Positions 31,956-55,158 of a DNA stretch of 64,000 nucleotides are shown here, one piece after another. Positions within the stretch are counted from its first letter, which is position 1, and each line of letters opens with the position of its first letter. The notes under the pieces are model-generated. The model saw nothing but the letters and a program-made list of their open reading frames with translations, made no database searches and was not told the origin of the DNA. Source of the stretch: the human T2T-CHM13v2.0 reference genome, Homo sapiens; the NCBI RefSeq assembly GCF_009914755.1, contig NC_060933.1. One strand, given 5' to 3'. A program made the translations under genes and the position numbers.

Positions 31956-32233
31956 GAAGAAGTAATTTTTTGTTGTTGTTGTTCTGTGGGTTTTTTGGGT
32001 TGTTGTTAGTCTCTCTCTATAGTGAAAGGCAGAGAACAAGAATACTTTGTAGATTTGTCTCACATTTGGTAGAAGGCAGAAACTCTATGTTATGTAAAGT
32101 TAGTAGAATACAAGTGAGGTAGGCTTAAGTAAGGTAAGGCACATAATAATTGCTGAGATGGGGAAATGACTTTTGAATTCCTTCAAAAAAGTATTTTCAA
32201 AAATTATCTGCTGCTTCTTTGTGGTTTTCTTAG

Positions 32234-32269
32234 GTCACTGGACCTATTTGGGCTGGGGAGAACAACAGA
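32234..32269 (+). CDS. UNC13B: UNC13B 36-nt alternative microexon ((C)[11 protein letters not shown](T)), phase 1-1
   Basis: ttttcttag| acceptor and A|gtacgt donor; symmetric and frame-preserving. Gives [23 protein letters not shown], similar to the recalled UNC13A segment CNWNYFGWGEQH and rodent ubMunc13-2. Confidence 0.8.
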
Positions 32270-33085
32270 GTACGTAAGAATTGAAATTCCTTATCATTTT
32301 CTTGATCTTACCCACAAAGTACATACTCCCTCTGAACTGTGAAGCTGGATATTCATGCATAGACTTCCATTTCCCTCTCCTCTCCTACTTAAATATCGGG
32401 AGACAATGACCTGTGGTGGAATGTTATATCCTTTCAGGCTGGTTTCTTGACGACTTTGTGTGTGTTTATGTGTGTTACAAATTTCAAACCAAAGTCCCAG
32501 TCATAATCCTGACAAGATCTCCTAATTTTTATTCCCCAGAGGCAAGTAGTAGCATCAGCCCCCTAGTGTGGCCTTCTCCTTTGGTCCCTTTGGCTAAGGA
32601 GTGCAGTGACCAGAAGGAGAAGGTTCATTCTAGGATGAACTAGAGTCAAGGTGATTGGTGTGCATTCTGATTTGGCTGATTTTCTTGACTAGGAGGATAT
32701 GCAGAACAGACTGCTGTCTTGGGTTTATTGGTCTAGCAAATTGTGAATGCCATTTCAGCCAAAAACCTGCTTTTGTTAAGGAAACAAGAGGCTGAGGACA
32801 TGGCTTGGCTTTCCCTGAAGCAGCCCAGCTAAGGCCACCTTTGTTCTAGAGCTTAGAGAGTGGGCAGCCAGTTCTTTGTGGCAAAACATGTAGCCCTAGG
32901 CTGACATTACTGGTTGTGTTACCCATCTTACAGGATCTGGTTGAGTCTCAGTGATTAGGTATCCAGTAGGTACTAAGACGGGCCAAAGTTTGTCCTGTCA
33001 CTGGAATTTCTCATGAAGTCTGTGCTTTCTGTGATTTGAATCCTGAGTACTTCTGCTATTAGGAAAGTACTCAAAAGCAGCTTGA

Positions 33086-36860: not shown

Positions 36861-37095
36861 CTTTTGAAGACCCTGATAGTGCCGTCGATGACCGAGATAG
36901 TGACTATCGCAGTGAGACCAGCAACAGCTTCCCACCTCCTTACCATACAGCTTCCCAGCCCAACGCTTCTGTGCACCAGTTCCCTGTGCCGGTGCGATCG
37001 CCACAGCAGCTGCTACTTCAAGGCAGTTCCCGGGACTCTTGTAATGAATCTATGCAAAGTTATGACCTTGATTATCCAGAGCGGCGGGCTATCAG
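36861..37095 (+). CDS. UNC13B: UNC13B internal coding exon, 235 nt ([22 protein letters not shown]...DYPERRAI), phase 1 to 2
   Basis: ttccatag| acceptor and CAG|gtgggt donor. The [20 protein letters not shown] peptide is characteristic of Munc13-1/ubMunc13-2. Confidence 0.97.
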
Positions 37096-40543: not shown

Positions 40544-41027
40544 TCAAATATAACTTTCAGAAAGTTAACAGCTTGGCTTCTTTTTAGACTAAAAATTTAT
40601 CAGCAAATTTCGTTTTCTTGAAATCCCTTGATATATTTTGCTGGTATACTTTAATATTGCAAATACATTCTAGATATTGGTACAACATGTTTCATTTTTT
40701 TCATTTGTTTCTTAGAAAAATAAAAGAATTCTAAAAAGCTCACCAATGAAAAATGATTGCAAGTTGAAGCATTTAAAAATTGATATTATAGCTGTTCTTT
40801 TTCTCATATGGAATAAACTATTTGACTACATTGATATAATATTTAAGAACATGTGGATTTCCTTTTCATATTTTTTTAGTCTGAATGCTTTTTATCACAT
40901 TGGCAATTTTATTGTTCTAGTCTTCTCATTGAACATGTATTAAATCTTATAACTTCTTTCTTCCTTTTCCCTGTCTCTTCCTTTTTCTTTGCTTTATTGT
41001 TCCTCCAATTTTATCCCTTCACATCAG

Positions 41028-41330
41028 ACAAGGCTCACAGGCTAAAGATGAAAAAATTAGGATTATTTCAGCTTTCTCTGATGTTGACTATGAAGAGCAA
41101 GAAGATATACATAAGGAGATAGAGGGGAAAATATCACAAGAGTTTCTAGAAAATAATAACATAAACTTGAAGGAAGCAGAGATAAAAGAAATTAGAACCC
41201 TTTCAAAAGCTGATAAATACTACAGCCAACAAAAACAACCAAAGTATAAGAACAGGAAAAAGATACCACCTCAGAGCCAACAAACAGAATTCTCTACTGA
41301 GTTTAAGGTTGAAACTTCTGTTTTCTCCAG
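41028..41330 (+). CDS. UNC13B: Candidate 303-nt in-frame cassette exon, or 5' extension of the giant exon (QGSQAKDEKIRIISAFSDVDYEEQ...ETSVFS), phase 2-2
   Basis: ~75-nt pyrimidine tract, no AG from 40921 to 41025, acatcag| acceptor, open frame continuous with the giant ORF, CAG|gtatgc donor at phase 2. Confidence 0.6.
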
Positions 41331-44300
41331 GTATGCTCAGAAATATGATACACTAGATAGAAGAAGAAAAAAGAAATCCTTATACAATCATTTTGAAGAC
41401 AGTGAAAGAAGGCAATATGGTGAGAGATCTGAAACTAAGACTAACTACAAAAGTACATATTCTAATACTGAAAATTGTACCCTTTGCCATACTGAAAAGA
41501 AACAAAATATGGGGTACCCAGTTTTGTACCCCTACAAAAATGGATTTGTGGTTAAGAGTGGCATGCAGCGCATTAAGTTGGAAAGTCATGATTATGATCT
41601 GTCCAGTTGTTTAAGGCACTGTGAAAAGTCATCTGGCTCAAACCAGCATGTCACTAATTTTACCTCATTAGATATTCTTGAAGATTCTACTAGTAGTACT
41701 TCTGATGAACTTCTGGGTTCCCCCATTTCTGATAAGCAGGAAAATTTACAGTCACCAACATGGCATTCATCCAATGTCCACCATATTGGAGATTTTCCTG
41801 AGGAATATTATGTAGCAAATTCAGCATTGCCATTACAAAGGATGAATTGTGATGCAAAAACACTTGGAGATCTGTCTGAGTGCTCTATAGAAGAGATAAC
41901 CCCTTCCTCTATTGAGGAGCCCAAGGAGGACCGTATTGATACAATGGATGAGCTTCAGTGTTTGGTAGAAACGGTGTCAGAATATTTAGCAGAGAAGGAA
42001 GAGGAGATTAATAGATTTGGTTCACTTTCAAAAACTAAAAAATCACATAAACAAAATAGTACTCTTGATGCAGAACAGAGAACGCCTGGGGATCAAATAC
42101 CACCTTTAACTATTGTCAAGAATGACAAGGACACGGCCATCTCTTTCCCTGAGTTGACTGGAGTACAATGTGCTGTTGGTTCTTTGTTTAGTTCACTCAC
42201 AGAAAAAGTGGGTTCAGGCACAAAGCATCTAACAAACTCTGTGGAAAAGTTGGTTTCCTTAGTTCCAGAAAAAACAGAAACTCTTAATCAAATAGAGGCA
42301 ATTAATTTGGGATCTAAACCCAGAGCCATGGCAGTATTGGGGAAGGATCTTTCCATGCAATCTCCATTATCCTCTCAAAAAGATGATAATGTGAATATAG
42401 ACAGACATAGAAAAACCTCTGAAAATGAGCACATGGGTAATAAAACTGGGAGTTTATACTTTCAGAATACAACAGAAAGTATTGCAAAGGACTTGGCTCC
42501 ACAGAGTCAGAGTTCAGTTATAAAGTCGGTTTTCAGCAGGTTAAATCCATTGAAGATCTTTTCAGAAAAGGAGGAAACAAAAAAAGATGATGACCAGAGT
42601 AAGCCACCAAGAAAAGAAAGCTTTGTTGAGTGTGGTTTGGAGTTAAATAAAAGGGAAGGCACTCTTGACAATTACAGTAGTAGCATCATTGCTTTAAATG
42701 GGAGTGATGAAGAAACTACGGGCTGGTTCCAGATGCCCACAAGTGAGAATTTGTTGTCCTCCCAAGTAACCAGTGAACCTTCAAACTTAGTTAGTTCTGC
42801 AAGTAAAAATGATGAGAGTCTATTGGAAGAAAAACTCTGTATAGATCTGTCTCTTTTACCAGATCAACAAAAAATATGTGCCAAAGATACTCCAGGACAT
42901 CCTTGTATAGCTGGCAGTAGAACTGCAAATAAAGAGGTATTTTCAAAGCCATTAGAGGAGGACAAAGTTACAGGTAATGATGATTTCCTTGAGCCACTCA
43001 GAAAATCATTTAGCCAGTTTTTGCTCACTTCCCCTGAGACTTGTTCAAAGGAAAGTTTGTCAGAACCTGTGAAAATTCGCCAGGTGGAGGAAGATGGTTT
43101 AGAAAGGGGCTCTAAGAAAGATGGTCATTCCTTTTCCTTTAGTGGAAAACTAAATCTTCCATTTTTTAGAAGTCTTGGTCATTCTGAAAAGCAACAGGAG
43201 TTAAAAGAGAAAGGAAGCATTTTTCCTTTGTTTAAATTTTCTTTCACTGACAGCAAGGTTACTGTTAATGACCAGAGTTTACGTGGCTCAGCAGTAACCA
43301 CTGATGAGGAGAGCAAAAAAAATTGCCATGAAGATACCAAACATAGTTCAATAAAATCTAGTTCTGTTCCAAATATTCATAGTGATCTAGGAAAATTTGA
43401 CAGTACAGAGGAATTTAAAAAGAATGACCAGATAAATTGTCCTGAAGATGCCAAACTTAATTCAATAAAATCTAGTTCAGTTCCAAATATTCATGATGAT
43501 CTAGAGAAGTTTGACAGTATAAAGGAATTTAATAAGAATGACCAAGTAAATTGTCCTGAAGATGCCAAACTTAGTTCAATAAAATCTGGTTCAGCTCCAA
43601 ATACTCAGGATAATCTAGGGAAATTTGACAGTACAGAGGAATTTAATCAGAATGACCAAATAAATAGTCCTGAAGATGCCAAATTTAATATAATAAAGTC
43701 TGATTCAGTTACAAATATTAATAATGATCTGGGGAAATTTGGGAATATAGAGGAATTAAATCCAAGTGACCACACAGCAGGACAGAATTTTGAAAGGGAT
43801 GGCTTAGCCATCCCTGGAGTTGTGCCCAAAGAACATATAACTTCAGATCCTTTAGGAGAAGATAAGAATCTTATACAAGCAGCATCTTCAGTAGCATCAG
43901 ACTCTTCATTAGAGTGTATTTCTACCACTTCCAAATCCACTTTGGTTAATGAAATTAATGAAGATGAGGTTATAGATAAGACTTCCAAGAAAAATACCCA
44001 AGGAAGCTTCCTTTCTGGCCTGTTTAATAGGTTTTCTTCTGCTGAAAATTTGTCTAGTCAAGAATTAAATTTGAAAAATGATGACTCCCATCACAAGAAT
44101 AATACCCCAGGTTTAATCTCTGGAATATTTAACCTGCTATCAAATAGCGGTATGATTGATCATAAACCAGAGGAAGCAAAGTTCATGTCTTTAGGCAACA
44201 TGAAGAGTTTGAATGGAGATAACCATTTATCCTTGGATGAGGTCCCTGCTACTTCATGTGTGACTTCTGAGAACCCGAAGAACCATGTTGAAAAACATGA

Positions 44301-47300
44301 AACTTCTAGCTTCATAGAAGCCTCCTTATTACCTAAAGAAAACATACCATTATCTGATGCTGGGGATGATAATCATTATTGTTCCCCTACAGAGAAAAAC
44401 CAGCAAAGTGAAAAGCATCACCCCTCCTCTGAGAACATTGTACTTCACTGTGCTCCAAGTGCTCAGCTAGGTTTTTTGGAGAAATCTATGGCTAAGAGGC
44501 AAATGCCAAACCATGTTCTTGAGGCAAAACTACATGAAAATTCAAACAAGTTAAATTCACCTGTACTAAATACCAACATTCTCAATAAATCAAACAACTA
44601 TCAGGCTTTTGAAGAGATGAACAGTCCTTTCTGTTTTGAATGGGACTCTGACATAAAAGATTTGTCTAAAAATTCCAGAAAACTTCAGCCAGTTTATTAT
44701 ATGTTAAATCAAAATAGATTTCTATCAGCCGATGCTTGCTTGTGGCTTGACTCAGAAAACTCAGTGATAAATTTTTGCCAAAAAGATCAAAATGCAAACA
44801 TCTTGGAGTGGAGAACAAATCCAAACAGTGTCATTTGGTGTGACTTACCATATGAATCATTCAATCAGTTAGCATTTAATGAAGATTACTTATTAAGAGG
44901 TGATGTGTGGGCAGCTAACTCATTATATGGAAACTCTGGTCCTCTTCCAATTAATGAGGCTAATAATTCACTAGAAGAATTACCCATTGACTTAAGTTCT
45001 TCATCAGATCATGAAAAGACTACATGCCCCGTAGTTGATCAAGAATCATTAAGAATGGATGAAAACTTTGTTTTTTCAAGTTTTGGTTATGAGTACCAGG
45101 AATGGTTGTCATGTCTTGAACATGGAGTGTGGTGGCCATCAGAGGATGGGGATTATGGATATTATATGTTTCATGATGGTCAATATATCTATTCTCTTCT
45201 CACTGATTCTACTGGGCAGTATGCATATTTATTTATACCTGATTCTTATCAAGAGTATTTGGATTGTGATTTACAGACAAATGGTCTATCAAGTATTACG
45301 TTGGATGACAGCATTATTTCTGCCTGTAGTTTTAAAGTACTTGATAAGGAAGATGAAATATTTTGGTATGTTGAAGAGGAACCAATTGATGACCCTCTTG
45401 ATTTATCTTTAGCTTTGCCAAGAAGTGAGGAACCATTGTATCTAAATTTAGAAACCTTTTCACAAGTACTTAAAGAGTCAAGTTGTGACCAAAGCGATCA
45501 GCCACTAGATTTTTCAGGCTATAATCGTCAAAAGTTTAAAGGAGACTTTAGATCTTTCAAAGAAAGGCCGTGTGGTTCTGAAGACGCTGAATGTACATTA
45601 GATCTCAGAAATCAGCCCCAAACTATTAGTAATCATGTCTCAAGCAGAGATCAAATTATAGAGAGAGATAAAAACCAGCCTCTAGCTGAAGATTCATCAG
45701 TTCACCTTTCCAGTTTCCATTGGCTTCAGTCTTCTGTTGAAGAAGTTACCACTTTGGTTCATCCTGAAAATATGACTAAAGGCTCACAACAAGCAGAAGA
45801 GACATCATTAGTGAACAAAGTGGCTTCAGTATTTTCTGTTTTGGGTGCCTCAGTTGGAAGTACTTTGAAGTTTGATAAGAGTGAATCCTTAGAGGCTTTG
45901 GCCATGCAGAAAGTGAATCAGCAGTCAGATTTAGCAGAGCTCACAAATGATGGCTTTCAGTCATTAATCATGAGTAAGCAATTAGAGGGTAACTCCCCAA
46001 ATGTGGAAAAAAGTCTTCTTAAGGATTCAGAAAGACAGATAGTATCCAATGTTCAGCATCCAGAATTGATCAAAAATATAAGGCAAGAATTCTCTTTAAA
46101 TAAAAACAACCATGTGAAAAAGCAAAGTTTGTTAAAATCTGGTTTCCAGGTAAGCCAAACAACTCCTCAGGCTAAATCAGGTGTAAAAGATGATGAAATC
46201 ATTACAACAGACTCTATTTCAGTTTCTCCTGCACCTCAGCATAGTGGGGATGAGCGTGAGAATTATGAGCTTCCCCAGGGCCAGTCATCCAAAGAGTCTG
46301 ATAAAACATTATTTAAAAGTTCATTGAAACTCTTCAGTCAAGAAGAATCGTCAGTTAGTATGACAGCAAATGAAAAACAGTCATCTGGATTTTTGAATCT
46401 TTTTAAGACTCAGGTGAATAAAGAAGGATCACCAAACTTAGAAAAGATTGGTGATACAAATGTCAAGATACCACCTCAAGAAAAGAAAGAATCTTCTGGT
46501 GTTTCAAATTTTTGGGGTACCCTTGGGGATTTCTTTAAAGCCAATGTATCTCCTATACAGACAACTGAAAATACGTCTGTTTCTTCAATGACTATTAAGG
46601 ATGAGGTCAGGTCAAGTCCTACTCCTATGGAGCTAGCTAGCCAGGGTGCTGGGAACTTTCCTGCTGCACCAATTTCCTCTAAAGGGAAGGCTAGAGTTAG
46701 AAGACTGAACAAACAGACTACTATCGATGACAGTAGGTTAGAGGAATCAACTAGAGGGATCCAGGGTAATGATTTGACTGAAAAAGAGGTACCATTCAGA
46801 GACCATCTAATCCAGCAGTCACCTAATTCATCTTTTTCAACAAGTAGTCTCAAAGAGTCTTCCAGGGAGTCTTCAGTAGAAACTAGTGGTGTGACTACAG
46901 TGACAGAAGTTTCAAAAAGTAATGAAATATCCTTTGATACCCTGAGCAAGAGAAATTCAAATGAACAAGATCATTTTTCTGACAAAGACTGGAGTTTCTC
47001 TATGGCTGCAACATCTTCATCTCAACCAGAGTTATCAACCAAAAAGAGTATATTTTCTTTTCTCACTGGATCTGAAAAATCTGAGAACAGAGCCTCTGCT
47101 ACTCTACCAAGAGCCAAATCTCAGGCAGAAGGGCTATTCACACTTCCTTCATTTTTTTCCACTGCTAGCTCAAGCATTAAGAAGGATGCCTCTCATAGTA
47201 GTTCTACTTTTAGTTTCTTCAGCTTGTCCTTTTTGGATCAAAAAAAGGAGACCTCTGGGGAAAAACAAAGCATTTCAACTGTTGTTCCAGTGACCTCCCA

Positions 47301-49577
47301 GCCCTGTAAGAAGACAAATGTTTTTGTAGAGAGTGGTAGCACAATGACCAGAGAAAGTTCCAGTGGTCATAGAGATAGCATAGCCCAAGAAGTAGTTCAT
47401 GAACAGCAAATGGCACCTTGTATTTCCATTAACAACACCATTGAGGTTACCTCCCTTGCAGATGAGCTCAGTGTAGACAAGGACTGTCAGGAAAAACTGA
47501 GTTCCAATATTGTACCAGGGACATCAGTGGATTTCCAGATGAATGAATTGCAAAAAGACATTATTCCTCCTTCACCAGAATTTCAGGCACAGGCTGAAAC
47601 ATTCCTCACTGGCCCAGAGAACCTTGGGATAGCTCCCCATGAAGAAGAGGCTTTCAACCACAAAGCCTTCCCCAGTGACTCACTGTCCAACTCTTTTTCA
47701 CATGCTAAACAGTTAATTGAAAAATTCAATGATTTAGACACTTGTACTAACTGCCACCAAAATGAGAAATTTACTACTGACCCAGTGAACTTGCCATTAG
47801 AAAAGGCCCCCGATGAGGTCTTACCACAGATCCTAGAGCCAGCCTCTTCCTCTCCAGAGCCAGGGTGTGCAGGGAACCTTCAGAACCAAGATGCAGATAA
47901 AGAGGAAGACAAATTTGCATTAGGCTCTTCAGTAGACATGCTTTCAGGGTTTGTGACCAAAGTGAAATCTTTCTCTGGGAGCTTAATTGAACCTCCCAAA
48001 ACACTCTCTGGACTTTTCTCCTCTCCTAAATCTCCAAAGAAAAACTCCTTTTTCTCTCTTGCTTCTGATGTATCATCTCAGCCCCTCAAAGGTGAATTAT
48101 TTGGAATTTTCAAAAGTCCCAAGCCAGAGCCATACAAACAAGAATCATCTCTCCCAGCTACTTCATGGCTTCAAAATGGTTGTTCCAGAGATGCTGTAGG
48201 ATCAGTACCTCCAGAAAGGAGAGAAGCTGCCTTTACAGCACTAAGTTCAGAATCTACTCTCAGTGACTGTAGAATGACTGTGGTTAGTGCAAAGCCAGAA
48301 TCAGATATCTTGACAGATGATCCTAAACTAACAACCAAAATGGAAGACAATAATACTCCTGAAAATATTCTGGAACCTCAACGTTCTGAAACAATTAATA
48401 CATCTTCTTTCTCGGGTGATGATACTGGGCAAGGAGTATTGTCTCTGAGTGATGAAGGAGACATGGGGATATTGCAAGCTACAGACACGGAGGCATCGTT
48501 AGAAGCAGAGAACTTTGCGCTGCCAGCACAGTTGCATCCAGATCCTACCTGCATTGCCGAAGAGCTTCCTCCTCCCATTCAGCCACCTCTTCCTCTTGAG
48601 CCAGAGCCAGCTATTCAAACTGCCTCCACAAACCAAGACTTACTGGAGCTGCATCCAGCCAGTTCACTAGAAACTGATACTATGCTGTTCAATGATGCAA
48701 GTGTGAGCCAGAGCACCACTCTGGAAACCGAAGGGCACTTTTCTCATCCTCTGCTGGAGGACCCTGTGCTTGCTGCCAGAGAAAGTTGTGAGATAATTCA
48801 TGCCCAGAAAGATCCACCTGTAGTACCCCAGGAAACAGAGCAGTCAAGACCACGTTTTGAGATCCCAAATGTGACCACTTGGCCAAAGCTTCGTTTGCCA
48901 TCCTCTGCTACTAACCATGGGAAACCACTGAGCTCTTTCTTTTCCTCACCTCTCCCCTCTGGCAATAGAGCAGCAGAGACTGGTTTAATGTCCAGTTTTA
49001 AGAAGTTGTCAACTCTATTTGAGGGAAGTAGTGAGGGGAAAGGGAGTGTATTAGCAAGTGATTCAAAACTAGGATTTGGAAAGGTAGATCTTTCATTTCC
49101 ATGGCCAAAAGAGAACAAAGGGGTCCCTGAACAAATGCCTACAGAATCCTCCCCTCCAGTTTTAGTTACTAGCAGTGATCAGGACCTTAACTCCAGTGAG
49201 GCTAACAAAGCTTTGAAGTCTTCTCAAATATCTGGGGCCAGTGCTCAGCCAGGTAAAGTCTACACTCAGCCCTCTGGGACCTCTGAGCAGCTGGTGGCCA
49301 GTCCAGAGGTCTGTGCTCAGGGGCTTTCAGGGTCTGGAGAAGGGGGAAACCAGCAGGAAATCTCAGCATCTGGAGAACACTGGGATACCAAAGCCAACCT
49401 GTCTAGCCCCGCCTGTCCTTCAGGGAAACATGAGGAAGAACCCTCCACTGTCTCTGAGATATTTCACCAGCTAGAAAAACAAGAAGAGGAGGCAGTACCT
49501 GCCAGTACTGACTCTGATTTGAATGTACAGCAGCCAGTCACTCTGAATGACATCAAGGAGCCCATGACCAACAAAAG
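41331..49577 (+). CDS. UNC13B: UNC13B giant alternative coding exon, 8247 nt / 2749 codons; the frame runs on to TAA at 49654-49656 if unspliced
   Basis: 2829-aa ORF in the track with no TE-like sequence. The ttctgttttctccag| acceptor is in phase with the upstream exon. A phase-2 AG|gc boundary at 49577 joins in frame to 51628, and 1591+2749=4340 aa matches the recalled length of the long UNC13B isoform. The 3' boundary is less certain than the 5'. Confidence 0.85.
43321..43770 (+). repeat. Coding tandem repeat, 114 bp (38 aa) x ~4, inside the giant exon
   Basis: Units start at 43321, 43435, 43549 and 43663; approximate consensus NCPEDAKLxSIKSSSVPNIHxDLGKFDSTEEFNKNDQI. Confidence 0.95.
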
Positions 49578-50328
49578 GCCTGTTCTTAACTCAAGCATCA
49601 TAAATGGCTTTAAGGAATTGACCATTTATGATGCAAGTGACTTAGTGGTAGATTAATCATAGCTTGCTTTTTATCCTTCTTGTGTCTTTCCTAGTACCCG
49701 AGCTTCATGTTAATTAGGGGTTAAATAACAAGAACTCAGTGTGTGGGTATTTTCATCCTCCCCTTCTCTCTCTGCCAAATGTAATTCATTTACTGGAACA
49801 AGGAGCTTCCTGCTTAAAGCAAAAGCTGGGCCCCCGATATTTACTCACTCTGGTTTGCTCTGCCTTGTATAATGTGAAATGGAGAAAGGAGGGCAGGAAG
49901 AGGTAGTAAGTAGTTGGTGGTATATATTAACTACAACTACATGATAGGCTAGGATGCTTCCTTGGGCCTTAGGCACTTATATCTTGTAGGAGATGGGGAT
50001 AGATCTATTTTGCTTTGTTTTTTCAAGTCTTCTAAGATGCTTTCTCCAGTGGCAATGAGTGTATTAAGCAAAATACAAAGTGCAAAGGATGCCTTGGGAT
50101 AGTCTGTATTCCCATATCCTATTCCATACAGATTTGCATAGTTTCTTCCATGGTATCATCTCTGCCTTTTACTACCCTCAAGGCTGATGTCTGATAAATG
50201 CTTTGAGTAAAATCTCACAGGAACTCAGAGCTGTCCTTTGCTGTAGTTCTTCAGTCTCGAGCAGTGTACAGGATCTATCTGCAGAGGGTACTGTTATTTC
50301 CCCTAAGAAGCAGTACCATACAGTACAG

Positions 50329-50589: not shown

Positions 50590-51627
50590 CTTCTTTGACC
50601 AAGGGTAAACACAAGCCCTTTAGTTAAAGGCTTGACTCTGTGGTAAGAAAATTCTTCAAAAGAACTGAAGCCCTTAGATGACAGGGCCATAAAACTCAAG
50701 GAAGTAACTTCTAGATACTGCTCTTCTTTCCACCACTCTGCCCTTCTTGCCACTGTCACATTCTCTGCTATAACTGCTTTCTCTCATGACTTTCTGGATA
50801 TGGGAATACAGGTGATTGAGAAAAGATTGGCTTGCTGGTCTTCAGATATAGAGATGCATGAATACGGCTCTGACCCAGATCCTGGAGTTGGACTTTGTCC
50901 ACTCTTTCCAAAACTGAGCCTTGCCCTGAAAGAAGCTCAGTTACAGATGTTCATCTTTGGGACGCTTCCTATGCTGCCAGGGATATCATTGTAGCATTTA
51001 TGTTGATGAGACCATTCGTTTGTGTATTCTCTTGGTCCTGGCCTCTATCTTCCAATGGGTTCTATTAACTCATCTTGCAGATGAGGAAACTGAGATGATA
51101 ACTGAAAGAACATGTCTGCTCTCCTTTGCTCATCCTAAGGTACAGGCGTACACATTTACAATTGTAGAGGAAGAAATGATGACCTCAATGTAATAAGTAA
51201 TAGAAAAAGAGTGGAGTTCATTCATTCCATTTTACTGTGTGGAAATTAAAGAAAGATTAATCACAGCCACTGGACAAGCTTCTTTAGAAGACTGAATAAA
51301 GAATTTTAGGAATAAGTAACAGGCCATTTTAATAATTTTTAATCCTACTCACAAATAGCCTATTAAGATAAAATATACTTCAAAGTCAAGTGCAGAACTG
51401 AGGTTAAGTGTCGTTGGAGAACCCAGCATGTTGTGTTGTTTTCCTGTTGTGTTTTCGCTGAATAGAGACTAATTCTTCTAGATTATGAAGTTTGGTCCTC
51501 TCTTCCCAGGAACCTCCTATTTGATTCTTGCTACTAATGTAGTCATTATTTCCTGGATGTCTCCTTTCTTTTGTCCTGGTCCCTGATTGCATTTATTTAC
51601 TTATCTGTCTTTCTGTCATTCTCACAG

Positions 51628-51942
51628 CCCCACCAGCAGCAGTAGGTATGGCTCCTCCTGTAATGTGAGTCAAGGAAGCTCTCAGCTAAGTGAACTAGAC
51701 CAGTATCACGAACAAGATGACGACCATCGGGAGACGGACTCGATTCATTCTTGCCACAGCTCTCACAGCCTGTCCAGAGATGGCCAAGCAGGTTTTGGAG
51801 AACAAGAGAAACCCTTGGAGGTGACAGGTCAAGCAGAGAAGGAGGCAGCATGTGAACCCAAGGAGATGAAAGAAGATGCCACAACCCACCCTCCCCCAGA
51901 TCTGGTGCTGCAAAAAGACCACTTCCTAGGTCCCCAGGAGAG
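51628..51942 (+). CDS. UNC13B: UNC13B internal coding exon, 315 nt ([22 protein letters not shown]...FLGPQE), phase 2-2
   Basis: ctcacag| acceptor and GAG|gtaggc donor; peptide matches recalled ubMunc13-2. Confidence 0.96.
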
Positions 51943-55067: not shown

Positions 55068-55158
55068 TTTTCCTGAGGAGAATGCATCTTCACCATTTAC
55101 CCAAGCCAGAGCACATTGGATCCGAGCAGTTACCAAGGTTCGACTCCAGCTGCAGGAG
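55068..55158 (+). CDS. UNC13B: UNC13B internal coding exon, 91 nt, calmodulin-binding helix ([30 protein letters not shown]), phase 2 to 0
   Basis: ttacaag| acceptor and GAG|gtagga donor. [18 protein letters not shown] is the Munc13 CaM-binding motif; anchor Trp codon at 55117-55119. Confidence 0.96.

What the first reader, a model, noticed from the sequence alone, without database searches (positions are those of the whole stretch)
41028..49656. Giant UNC13B exon looks like a modular Piccolo/Bassoon-like tether built into Munc13-2
Seen: a TE-free ~8.7 kb open frame sits in phase between two ubMunc13-2 exons, amid Alu-dense introns. It encodes a S/E/K/P-rich, probably disordered ~2,750-2,850 aa insert laid out as an amphipathic-motif arm, a central aromatic/PxDLS core, and a second amphipathic arm. 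Known: ubMunc13-2 binds RIM through C2A, primes vesicles through C1-C2B-MUN-C2C, and is the Munc13 isoform reported at photoreceptor ribbon synapses. Inference: the insert creates a ~4,300-aa isoform that anchors to CtBP/RIBEYE and captures curved vesicles, coupling tethering to priming. I recall the long isoform being annotated but know of no functional description.
Basis: partly seen in the sequence, partly recalled or inferred. Interest (0 to 1): 0.9.

Follow-up and report, generated by a model that had tools for sequence, protein, structure and literature searches.

The report
Giant conserved UNC13B (Munc13-2) exon
A single 8.2-kb exon of the synaptic priming gene UNC13B adds about 2,750 mostly unstructured residues carrying conserved motifs of the kinds that bind ribbon proteins and vesicle membranes, and no paper I could search describes what it does.

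Summary
A stop-free frame runs from 40933 to 49653 (8,721 nt); the next longest in the window is 534 nt. It contains no masked repeat. RefSeq exon 41331-49577 lies within it and is used by 1 of 18 UNC13B transcripts (NM_001371189.2, 4,340 aa).

Its extra 101 residues are conserved as far as birds.

The frame is open in gene models from sharks to humans. Fast-evolving linkers separate short conserved islands:
- Three PxD[L/F]S motifs (PIDLS, PLDLS, PLDFS), kept in 22, 25 and 21 of 25 species. They sit in an aromatic core that has no paralogue, Pfam match or PDB match.
- About 16-20 Phe/Leu/Ser islands with alpha-helical amphipathic periodicity, in both arms.

This is the logic published for Piccolino (PXDLS motifs bind RIBEYE, an ALPS helix binds vesicles). 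I found no homology to Piccolino.

Binding, expression and localisation are untested. Forty-four of 127 models lack the MUN domain, and no mouse or rat orthologue appeared. The structure predictor was closed. Verdict: a real, annotated, functionally undescribed exon; the mechanism is plausible but inferred.

The parts
40933..49653 (+). Full stop-free reading frame (8,721 nt), followed by TAA at 49654-49656
   Evidence: next longest + frame stretch in the window is 534 nt
41028..41330 (+). In-phase upstream extension (303 nt, 101 aa) behind an alternative acceptor (pyrimidine tract, CAG|A). It is not in the human RefSeq models.
   Evidence: found in 51 of 120 orthologue models, at 34-41% identity in birds; human transcripts use only 41331.
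41331..49577 (+). RefSeq giant exon of NM_001371189.2 (8,247 nt). It encodes Y255-K3002 of the 4,340-aa isoform. The acceptor is TTTCTCCAG|G and the donor is AAG|GCCTGT, a GC donor.
49578..49656 (+). Read-through tail past the GC donor (26 codons and a stop). The peptide appears in 5 models from rodents and marsupials.
   Evidence: 5 models carry at least 30 of the 35 query residues (guinea pig, a ground squirrel, koala, sugar glider, bilby). Other models stop 5-8 residues after the donor.
41350..41376 (+). Conserved basic cluster TLDRRRKKK (aa 7-15)
   Evidence: kept from teleosts to mammals; conservation 0.72 in non-placentals
41914..42033 (+). Most conserved island outside the core (aa 195-234), an acidic helix-like segment nearly invariant from catshark to human
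   Evidence: 0.78 identity in 13 non-placental species; no human paralogue
42172..42267 (+). Conserved island aa 281-312, holding the first ALPS-like segment (aa 281-297)
   Evidence: its profile also hits the island near aa 1725 in 7 species
42502..42573 (+). ALPS-like segment and conserved NPLKIFSEKE island (aa 391-414)
42994..43026 (+). Conserved island PLRKSFSQFLL (aa 555-565)
43316..43761 (+). In-frame tandem repeat, 114 nt x 3.9 copies (38-aa units, aa ~662-810), not conserved outside placentals
43993..44154 (+). Two related ALPS-like segments (aa 888-907 and 925-941; GLLSGLF-type in fish and sauropsids)
   Evidence: the profile of the first hits the second in 11 species
44584..45561 (+). 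Aromatic, acidic central core (aa 1085-1410). It is the block most detectable in fish and shark.
   Evidence: (25 invariant columns in 26 sequences). No paralogue, Pfam match or PDB match.
44983..44997 (+). PxDLS motif 1, PIDLS (aa 1218-1222)
   Evidence: P-x-D-L-S in 22 of 25 species
45091..45228 (+). Best conserved core stretch (aa 1254-1299), rich in W, Y and G, read by eye as a possible beta-hairpin region
   Evidence: The fold is not tested because the structure predictor was closed.
45394..45408 (+). PxDLS motif 2, PLDLS (aa 1355-1359)
   Evidence: P-[LIV]-D-L-S in 25 of 25 species
45502..45516 (+). PxDLS-like motif 3, PLDFS (aa 1391-1395), 36 residues after motif 2
   Evidence: PLDFS in 21 of 25 species, PLDYS in 1
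45802..45870 (+). ALPS-like segment aa 1491-1513
46306..46557 (+). Cluster of conserved F/L/S islands and ALPS-like segments (aa 1659-1669, 1682-1697, 1719-1742)
47047..47184 (+). Conserved islands aa 1906-1912 and 1932-1940 and an ALPS-like segment aa 1938-1951
47917..48120 (+). ALPS-like segment aa 2196-2219 and conserved islands aa 2223-2230 and 2256-2263
48928..49020 (+). Conserved island aa 2533-2539 and ALPS-like segment aa 2550-2563
   Evidence: 0.65 identity in non-placentals
36861..37095 (+). Upstream UNC13B exon; ends with AG of the split codon
51628..51942 (+). Downstream UNC13B exon. With 55068-55158 it encodes the segment ending [15 protein letters not shown], which I recall as the calmodulin-binding helix.
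   Evidence: translation; the naming of the helix is recalled, not tested

Best explanation
The region is a genuine, anciently conserved, alternatively included coding exon of UNC13B. It inserts about 2,750 residues (about 2,850 from the upstream acceptor) between the RIM-binding C2A domain and the C1-C2B-MUN-C2C priming module.

Shown here: the insert is a long, fast-evolving chain that displays short, strongly conserved elements.

Inferred mechanism:
1. The three conserved PxD[L/F]S motifs of the central core dock into the PXDLS cleft of CtBP-family proteins. Those are CtBP1, and the CtBP2-identical B domain of RIBEYE.
2. The roughly 16-20 conserved Phe/Leu/Ser islands of the two arms fold into short amphipathic helices on contact with highly curved, loosely packed membranes such as synaptic vesicles. 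Each would bind weakly, so avidity does the work.
3. With C2A held by RIM at the release site, the chain would act as a multivalent tentacle. It would collect vesicles and, in the full-length form, hand them to the MUN module.

This is the same motif logic published for Piccolino, reached without homology.
For: Coding and constraint:
- The 8.7-kb open frame is free of repeats.
- One search returned 121 homologous proteins and one search returned 85. They span primates (86-98% identity), other placentals (60-70%), marsupials (about 40%), turtles, birds and lizards (about 30-35%), a frog, gar, teleosts and sharks.
- Conserved blocks lie at aa 65-414, 1081-1407, 1489-1750 and 2190-2605.
- Mean identity to human falls from 0.67 to 0.42, 0.30 and 0.20 across placentals, marsupials, sauropsids and fish. 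Meanwhile 39 islands stay conserved.

PxDLS motifs:
- They are kept in 22, 25 and 21 of 25 species.
- In composition shuffles the strict pattern averages 0.07 matches, and 0 of 2,000 shuffles reach 3.
- The three other loose-pattern matches are not conserved.

Amphipathic islands:
- Islands outside the core are enriched 3.2-fold in F and 2.1-fold in L.
- For 16 islands chosen by conservation alone, the mean moment is 0.346 at 100 degrees against 0.244 +/- 0.030 in shuffles, reached by 0 of 1,000.
- A screen calibrated so that the published Piccolino helix passes finds 12 segments against 5.5 +/- 2.1 in shuffles (1 of 300 reach 12). Eight of the 12 lie in conserved sequence, and none lies in the core.

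Precedent, from passages read:
- The Piccolino ALPS helix binds vesicle-like liposomes and is needed to recruit vesicles (PMC13394108).
- Piccolino's multiple PXDLS motifs, with spacers of about 25 and 45 residues, crosslink RIBEYE B domains, and one motif alone is not enough (bioRxiv 10.64898/2026.04.28.721253). The UNC13B motifs 2 and 3 are 36 residues apart.
Against: - There are no expression, peptide, binding or localisation data of any kind here.
- Every orthologue is a gene model.
- PLDFS departs from the classical motif, with Phe where Leu is expected.
- Motif 2 is followed directly by a conserved stretch, and motif 1 sits 36 residues before the most conserved aromatic block. If the core folds, the motifs could be structural and buried. 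I could not fold it. The charge-hydropathy test does not separate core from arms.
- The amphipathic segments are 14-24 residues long and 19% charged, mostly Lys. As I recall it, classical ALPS motifs are longer and nearly uncharged.
- My first screen threshold missed the validated Piccolino helix. At the calibrated threshold the excess is only about two-fold.
- UNC13B motif profiles do not recognise the Piccolino helix above its own shuffles.
- In passages read, the mouse Munc13-2 knockout has little effect on photoreceptor transmission, and inner hair cells appear to lack Munc13.
- Forty-four of 127 models lack MUN.
- No Mus or Rattus protein appeared, even with a hamster query.
Confidence: 0.4

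Rival explanations
1. The main product is a truncated scaffold. It would be C2A plus the insert, ending just past the exon by read-through or early polyadenylation, and would lack C1-C2B-MUN-C2C. Such a protein would bind RIM through C2A and carry the same motifs, but could not prime. It would act as a pure tether or as a competitor of priming-competent Munc13 for RIM.
For: - Twenty of 127 models are C2A plus insert without MUN. They include macaque, guinea pig, hamster, zebra finch, lizards, gar, herring and sharks. A further 24 are insert-only.
- The annotated donor is GC rather than GT.
- The 26-codon read-through tail appears in 5 models from rodents and marsupials. Many other models stop 5-8 residues after the donor.
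Against: - Seventy-four of 127 models join the insert to MUN.
- The exon keeps phase on both sides, and the human curated transcript is full length.
- In human, the only poly(A)-like hexamers in the downstream intron lie about 1.6 kb past the stop, at 51245 and 51295.
- Conservation of the tail could equally reflect splicing control of a weak donor.
- Truncated models can be artefacts of incomplete assemblies or of prediction.
Confidence: 0.3
2. The Phe/Leu/Ser islands are not membrane sensors. They would instead be short linear motifs for a protein partner, or aromatic 'stickers' that drive condensation of the active-zone matrix. The invariant acidic helix and the core would be further protein-docking sites.
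For: - Individual islands are conserved in sequence, not only in composition. Examples are NPLKIFSEKE, PLKKSFSQLL and the acidic helix, which is nearly invariant from shark to human. That is more typical of specific protein contacts than of ALPS motifs.
- The islands are short and carry Lys.
- Some islands are related to each other as repeats.
Against: - The hydrophobic moment peaks at the alpha-helical angle.
- The composition, S 19%, F 14%, L 13%, G 7.5%, is that described for ALPS-type helices in the passages of PMC13394108.
- No known partner motif was matched.
Confidence: 0.25
3. The exon serves a non-synaptic role. One option is a nuclear or cytoplasmic CtBP-linked function. Another is a product transcribed on its own, in non-neuronal tissue.
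For: - There is a conserved basic cluster, DRRRKKK, at the exon start.
- CtBPs are transcriptional corepressors (passages).
- Twenty-four of 127 models are stand-alone 'uncharacterized LOC' proteins.
- ubMunc13-2 is described as ubiquitously expressed.
Against: - Phase is kept with UNC13B exons on both sides, and 97 of 127 models join the insert to C2A and/or MUN.
- Stand-alone models start in the translated pyrimidine tract or at the upstream acceptor, which suggests prediction artefacts.
Confidence: 0.1
4. In humans the exon is a rarely used relic with no present function.
For: - Only 1 of 18 human transcripts includes it.
- The donor is a GC site.
- No paper found mentions it.
Against: - An intact 2,907-codon frame in human, and in models from more than 100 species, is not expected without selection.
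- Islands are invariant from shark to human.
Confidence: 0.05

Closest known systems
Piccolino (ribbon-synapse splice variant of Piccolo, PCLO)
   Same: It is a long, largely unstructured presynaptic chain that combines several conserved PXDLS-type motifs, which bind the RIBEYE B domain, with an ALPS-type amphipathic helix that binds vesicle-like liposomes (passages of PMC13394108, PMC10760060 and bioRxiv 10.64898/2026.04.28.721253). The UNC13B insert has three conserved PxD[L/F]S motifs and many S/F/L/G amphipathic islands.
   Different: - No sequence homology was found. There is no Pfam match or human paralogue, and profiles of UNC13B islands score the Piccolino helix no better than its shuffles.
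- UNC13B has three motifs against seven.
- UNC13B has many short candidate helices against one validated helix.
- The UNC13B insert is built into a priming factor that also has a RIM-binding C2A domain.
- Nothing in UNC13B has been tested.
ubMunc13-2 and bMunc13-2, the two described UNC13B products
   Same: Same gene. The giant isoform shares the ub-type N-terminal exons (C2A) and, in the full-length model, the whole C-terminal priming module.
   Different: It adds 2,748 residues between residue 254 and the downstream exon. A 2020 passage counts only two splice variants.
Giant-exon neuronal isoforms (480-kDa ankyrin-G, 440-kDa ankyrin-B, Big tau)
   Same: One very large, in-phase, optional exon adds a long, mostly unstructured segment to a known neuronal protein. 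I saw these papers only as search listings and abstract starts (PMC5135030 and PMC9755724); the rest is recalled.
   Different: It is a different gene with different motifs. Tissue-specific inclusion is established for those isoforms and unknown here.
GMAP-210-type ALPS tethers (recalled; cited in PMC13394108 as Golgi ALPS tethering)
   Same: A long tether that captures small, curved vesicles through lipid-packing sensing.
   Different: As I recall it, GMAP-210 is a coiled coil with one terminal ALPS motif. Here the chain is probably disordered and carries many short candidate helices.
Multi-PxDLS CtBP partners such as ZEB proteins and adenovirus E1A (recalled)
   Same: PLDLS is the classical CtBP-binding sequence, and several copies per protein raise affinity.
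   Different: Those are nuclear transcription regulators. This one sits in a presynaptic gene, and binding is untested.

Membership tests
UNC13B coding exon | On the gene's strand, in phase with both flanking exons, with usable splice sites | tested here: met
   AG|G and AG|C split codons; length is a multiple of 3; good acceptor; GC donor
UNC13B coding exon | Open frame conserved in orthologous genes, joined to C2A and MUN | tested here: met
   74 of 127 models are C2A+insert+MUN, from sharks and bony fish to mammals. All are predictions.
UNC13B coding exon | Inclusion in mRNA and protein in a human tissue | not testable with these tools
   Sequencing reads are off. The only indirect support is the curated RefSeq NM_ record.
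CtBP/RIBEYE ligands with PXDLS motifs | Sequence matching P-x-D-L-S/T (pattern recalled from the ELM resource) | tested here: met
   PIDLS and PLDLS match; PLDFS deviates at position 4
CtBP/RIBEYE ligands with PXDLS motifs | Motif conserved more than its surroundings | tested here: met
   22, 25 and 21 of 25 species; three other loose matches are not conserved
CtBP/RIBEYE ligands with PXDLS motifs | Motif exposed in a flexible segment | tested here: inconclusive
   The structure predictor was closed. The charge-hydropathy test is uninformative. The motifs lie in or beside an aromatic, conserved core.
CtBP/RIBEYE ligands with PXDLS motifs | Physical binding to the PXDLS cleft | not testable with these tools
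   needs pull-down or ITC with wild-type and cleft-mutant B domain
ALPS-type amphipathic helices | Alpha-helical amphipathic periodicity with bulky hydrophobic residues | tested here: met
   the moment peaks at 100 degrees, 0 of 1,000 shuffles reach it; F 14%, L 13%
ALPS-type amphipathic helices | Polar face of Ser/Thr/Gly with few charges; length about 20-40 residues (recalled definition) | tested here: inconclusive
   S+T+G is 32%, but 19% of residues are charged (net +0.8 per 14 residues), and segments are 14-24 residues
ALPS-type amphipathic helices | Curvature-dependent binding to liposomes | not testable with these tools
   needs flotation assays like those of PMC13394108
Piccolo/Bassoon protein family (homology) | Detectable sequence similarity or shared domains | tested here: not met
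   no Pfam domain, no paralogue in the human genome, and the Piccolino helix is not matched above its shuffles. PCLO and BSN were not aligned in full.
Giant-exon isoforms of neuronal proteins | A single very large optional in-phase exon encoding a mainly low-complexity or unstructured segment | tested here: met
   8,247 nt, the largest of 7,004 wholly coding internal exons on chr9
Giant-exon isoforms of neuronal proteins | Cell-type-specific inclusion | not testable with these tools

The most novel reading that the evidence does not exclude
Jawed vertebrates may have an unrecognised third class of Munc13-2 products, a 'giant Munc13-2'. It would be the second PXDLS-bearing presynaptic scaffold after Piccolino. 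One polypeptide would link RIM (through C2A), RIBEYE or CtBP (through three invariant PxDLS-type motifs) and vesicle membranes (through about 20 amphipathic helices) to the MUN priming machine. A truncated tether-only form may sit alongside it. If the exon is truly missing or decayed in mice and rats, the mouse-based view of ribbon synapses as 'Munc13-independent', and of Munc13-2 as having two isoforms, would have missed it.
Probability: 0.2. Interest if true: 0.85.

Novelty: new variant of a known kind. Interest (0 to 1): 0.65.

Why it matters
Munc13 proteins are the central vesicle-priming factors. Where and how they are anchored sets release properties. Passages I read state that Munc13-2 has two splice variants. 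[quoted passage not shown]

A 4,340-aa isoform conserved since the origin of jawed vertebrates would add a built-in tether to the priming machine. It carries three near-invariant PxDLS-type motifs and many vesicle-sensor-like helices. It would be a new candidate link between ribbons, or CtBP1 at conventional synapses, and release sites.

It makes several questions directly testable: how vesicles are passed from ribbon to release site, what the ribbon-associated role of ubMunc13-2 is, and whether rodents are adequate models.

It also matters for reading human UNC13B variants. Changes inside this 8.2-kb exon are coding in one curated transcript and intronic in all the others.

Tried and rejected
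Dead ends and negatives:
- Pfam on the whole insert gave only two sub-threshold cytochrome matches.
- Pfam on 26 core sequences gave only sub-threshold noise. Gp34_trimer matched 13 of 26 with best E 0.01, against a cut-off of 27 bits.
- A PDB sequence search with the core profile gave one chance match at E 2.5.
- The core profile against short proteins returned one catfish fragment.
- Searches of the human genome with the core profile and with aa 192-320 returned only the locus itself, plus chance matches at E 0.27 or worse.
- The Atlas had no usable hit.
- The charge-hydropathy plot does not separate core from arms.
- My first amphipathic screen (moment at least 0.45) gave 11 segments against 2.5 +/- 1.4. 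It failed the positive control, because the published Piccolino helix reaches only 0.41. I replaced it with the calibrated 0.40 screen. All thresholds are my own.
- The spectrum mixed in 3 windows chosen by that screen. One search repeats it on the 16 conservation-only islands.
- UNC13B island profiles against the Piccolino helix scored no better than shuffles: 790, 110, 823 and 384 of 1,000 shuffles scored at least as well.
- The loose CtBP pattern also matched PENMT, PMELA and PENLG. I rejected these as unconserved.
- Hydrophobic stretches after the tail in marsupial models are probably a translated pyrimidine tract.
- The antisense ORF at 46476-46949 was judged to be chance.

Literature:
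- Ten searches were run.
- None returned a paper on a giant UNC13B isoform.
- I saw the results as listings only.
- The one paper holding NM_001371189 is on Wilms' tumour and I did not open it.
Lists of long exons (PMC3467050) or of Musashi targets may mention this exon.

Not done:
- dN/dS, because no orthologous DNA is available.
- Any check of the mouse or rat genome.
- Full alignment to PCLO or BSN.

Full report
**1. The observation**

The + strand has no stop codon from 40933 to 49653. The flanking stops are at 40930 and at 49654-49656. No other stop-free stretch in the three + frames exceeds 534 nt.

RefSeq places one UNC13B exon inside this frame, at 41331-49577. It is 8,247 nt long. Only NM_001371189.2 (40 exons, 4,340 aa) of the 18 UNC13B transcripts uses it.

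The exon keeps phase. The upstream exon 36861-37095 ends in AG. The exon's first G completes an Arg codon, and its last two bases AG are completed by the C of exon 51628-51942. Transcripts with the C2A-encoding 5' exons otherwise join 37095 directly to 51628. The 2,748 internal codons have no stop. In the long isoform they are residues Y255 to K3002, because 761 coding bases lie upstream.

No masked repeat lies in the frame (0 of 8,727 bases), against 21% outside it. An Alu 5' signature occurs 10 times in the window, three of them within 2.5 kb upstream, and never inside the frame. This is the largest of 7,004 wholly coding internal exons on chromosome 9.

The composition is rich in Ser, Glu and Lys. 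Pro, at 5.8%, is ordinary.

**2. The ends of the coding unit**

At 41027|41028 there is a second acceptor, a pyrimidine tract followed by CAG|A, in phase and 303 nt upstream of the RefSeq acceptor. The 101 residues it adds occur in 51 of 120 orthologue models, at 34-41% identity in birds. No human RefSeq transcript uses this acceptor.

At the other end, the annotated donor reads AAG|GCCTGT. That is a GC donor.

That tail peptive is present in five models: guinea pig, a ground squirrel, koala, sugar glider and bilby. Many other models end 5-8 residues past the donor.

Among the 127 related proteins:
- 74 have C2A, the insert and MUN.
- 20 have C2A and the insert but no MUN.
- 3 have the insert and MUN.
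- 24 have the insert only.
- 6 have a partial insert with MUN.

All are gene models. A truncated product made of C2A plus the insert is therefore a live possibility, but it is not shown. The only poly(A)-like hexamers in the human downstream intron are at 51245 and 51295.

**3. Age and mode of evolution**

A word-based search with the whole insert gave 121 proteins (120 listed). All were UNC13B or unnamed models of the same locus:
- primates, 86-98% identity
- other placentals, 60-70%
- marsupials, about 40%
- turtles, birds and lizards, about 30-35%
- gar, a catshark and teleost unc13bb, 31-38% over 10-12% of the query

A hamster query added anoles, other lizards, a frog, a bamboo shark and a stickleback. 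Neither search showed any Mus, Rattus or other muroid protein besides the hamster cluster. Several thousand unnamed candidates were excluded by the tool, so absence in murids is a lead and not a result.

In a 25-species alignment, mean identity to human is 0.67 in placentals, 0.42 in marsupials, 0.30 in sauropsids and 0.20 in fish. Conservation is concentrated in 39 islands totalling 368 residues.

A 114-nt in-frame tandem repeat of 3.9 copies (43316-43761) is not conserved outside placentals.

An open frame of this length, kept in lineages that split more than 400 million years ago (a date I recall), is the main evidence for selection. I could not compute dN/dS because no orthologous DNA is available here.

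**4. The core**

Residues 1085-1410 form the block that fish and shark sequences match best, at 31-46% identity. In an alignment of 26 sequences, 25 columns are invariant.

The core is 14.7% aromatic, against about 5% in the arms.

It contains three motifs. PIDLS lies at aa 1218, PLDLS at aa 1355 and PLDFS at aa 1391. P-x-D-L-S is kept at the first site in 22 of 25 species. The second is kept in 25 of 25. PLDFS is kept in 21 of 25, with PLDYS in one more.

Composition shuffles give 0.07 strict matches on average, and none of 2,000 reaches three. The three further matches to the loose pattern are not conserved.

The core has no paralogue in the human genome, no Pfam match and no PDB sequence relative. 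No short protein shares it apart from one catfish fragment.

The stretch at aa 1254-1299 looks to me like beta hairpins, but that is only a reading by eye.

**5. The arms**

Outside the core, conserved islands are enriched 3.2-fold in Phe and 2.1-fold in Leu relative to the linkers.

I took 16 islands chosen by conservation alone and used fixed 14-residue windows. Their mean hydrophobic moment peaks at 100 degrees, at 0.346 against 0.244 +/- 0.030 in within-window shuffles. None of 1,000 shuffles reaches it. The moment is below expectation at beta-strand angles.

A wider set of 19 windows is S 19%, F 14%, L 13%, K 11% and G 7.5%. Charged residues make up 19%, with a net charge of +0.8 per window.

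My screen for ALPS-like windows first used thresholds that the validated Piccolino helix did not pass. At a threshold that it does pass, the insert has 12 segments against 5.5 +/- 2.1 in shuffles, and 1 of 300 shuffles reaches 12. Eight of the 12 lie in conserved sequence. Five are in the N arm, none in the core and seven in the C arm.

Some islands are related to each other. The profile of aa 283-296 finds the island near aa 1725 in 7 species. The profile of aa 891-904 finds the islands near aa 930 in 11 species and near aa 630 in 5.

Two other conserved elements do not fit this class:
- a basic cluster, TLDRRRKKK, at aa 7-15
- an acidic helix-like segment at aa 195-234, nearly invariant from catshark to human

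Their partners are unknown.

**6. Comparison with what is published**

I read the following as passages, not as whole papers.

- PMC13394108 (J Cell Biol 2026) shows that Piccolino is needed to tether vesicles to rod ribbons. It also shows that an ALPS helix in its N-terminal part binds vesicle-like liposomes, best the small ones.
- bioRxiv 10.64898/2026.04.28.721253 reports seven PXDLS motifs in Piccolino, with spacers of about 25 and 45 residues. They crosslink RIBEYE B-domain filaments, and a single motif is ineffective.
[quoted passage not shown] It adds that the Munc13-2 knockout has little effect on photoreceptor transmission.
- PMC7699581 notes that inner hair cells appear to lack Munc13.

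None of the passages retrieved mentions a giant Munc13-2. The two PXDLS papers contain no occurrence of 'Munc13' or 'UNC13' at all.

The UNC13B insert thus repeats the Piccolino logic of PXDLS motifs plus vesicle-sensing helices on a long flexible chain. Its motifs 2 and 3 are 36 residues apart. The resemblance is not homology, because UNC13B island profiles score the Piccolino helix no better than its shuffles.

The closest category in gene structure is the giant-exon isoforms of ankyrins and tau. I saw those only as listings; the rest is recalled.

**7. Most likely mechanism, and how sure I am**

- Shown: a real, annotated, in-phase exon, constrained over a long time, whose conserved parts are short motifs of two recognisable kinds.
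- Inferred: the core motifs bind CtBP-family clefts (RIBEYE B domain or CtBP1). The arm islands bind curved vesicle membranes weakly and multivalently. C2A fixes the chain to RIM. In the full-length form, captured vesicles are delivered to the MUN module.

By a random-coil estimate from my own knowledge, a chain of 2,750 residues would span some tens of nanometres on average, and far more when stretched. That is the scale of ribbon-to-membrane distances.

I give about 0.97 to 'real conserved coding exon' and about 0.4 to the mechanism as a whole.

Rivals, not all exclusive:
- A truncated tether-only product (0.3).
- Protein-binding or condensate 'sticker' motifs rather than membrane sensors (0.25).
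- A non-synaptic role (0.1).
- A relic without function in humans (0.05).

**8. Limits**

- No reads, no proteomics and no orthologous DNA were available.
- The Atlas was uninformative.
- All orthologues are predictions.
- The CtBP pattern, the ALPS definition, the naming of the calmodulin-binding helix and the hydrophobicity scales are recalled, not taken from a call.

Noticed in passing
window 32234-32269: A 36-nt coding microexon is used only by NM_001387551.1. It lies inside an MPRA 'silencer' element at window 32184-32384. A passage of PMC7948980 reports an Msi1-dependent, photoreceptor-specific alternative exon in mouse Unc13b. Whether that is this exon is not stated in the passage.
   Followed up: partly
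orthologue searches: No Mus, Rattus or other muroid protein with the insert appeared, apart from one hamster cluster (P0068). The hamster model lacks the first ~113 residues of the exon and has no MUN. The exon may be lost or unannotated in the standard rodent models. Excluded unnamed candidates mean this cannot be decided here.
   Followed up: partly
window 43316-43761: The in-frame 114-nt tandem repeat (3.9 copies, 84% matches, no indels) encodes 38-aa units. Copy number differs between placentals, so it could vary in length between people.
   Followed up: partly
P0110 (budgerigar) and P0079-P0084 (Hipposideros): Some models carry only parts of the insert. The budgerigar model lacks roughly human aa 420-1085, and the Hipposideros models hold about 39%. 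This hints at internal splice sites within the giant exon, or at assembly gaps.
   Followed up: no
P0073, P0074, P0078 C-termini; human 49657-49700: In marsupial read-through models the frame continues past the human stop into a run of about 22 hydrophobic residues that looks like a membrane anchor. It may simply be a translated pyrimidine tract.
   Followed up: no
window 51245 and 51295: Two poly(A)-signal-like hexamers lie about 330-380 nt upstream of exon 51628. They are the only ones in the intron after the giant exon.
   Followed up: no
window 46476-46949, minus strand: An antisense ORF of 157 aa lies inside the giant exon. I judged it to be chance and did not examine it.
   Followed up: no
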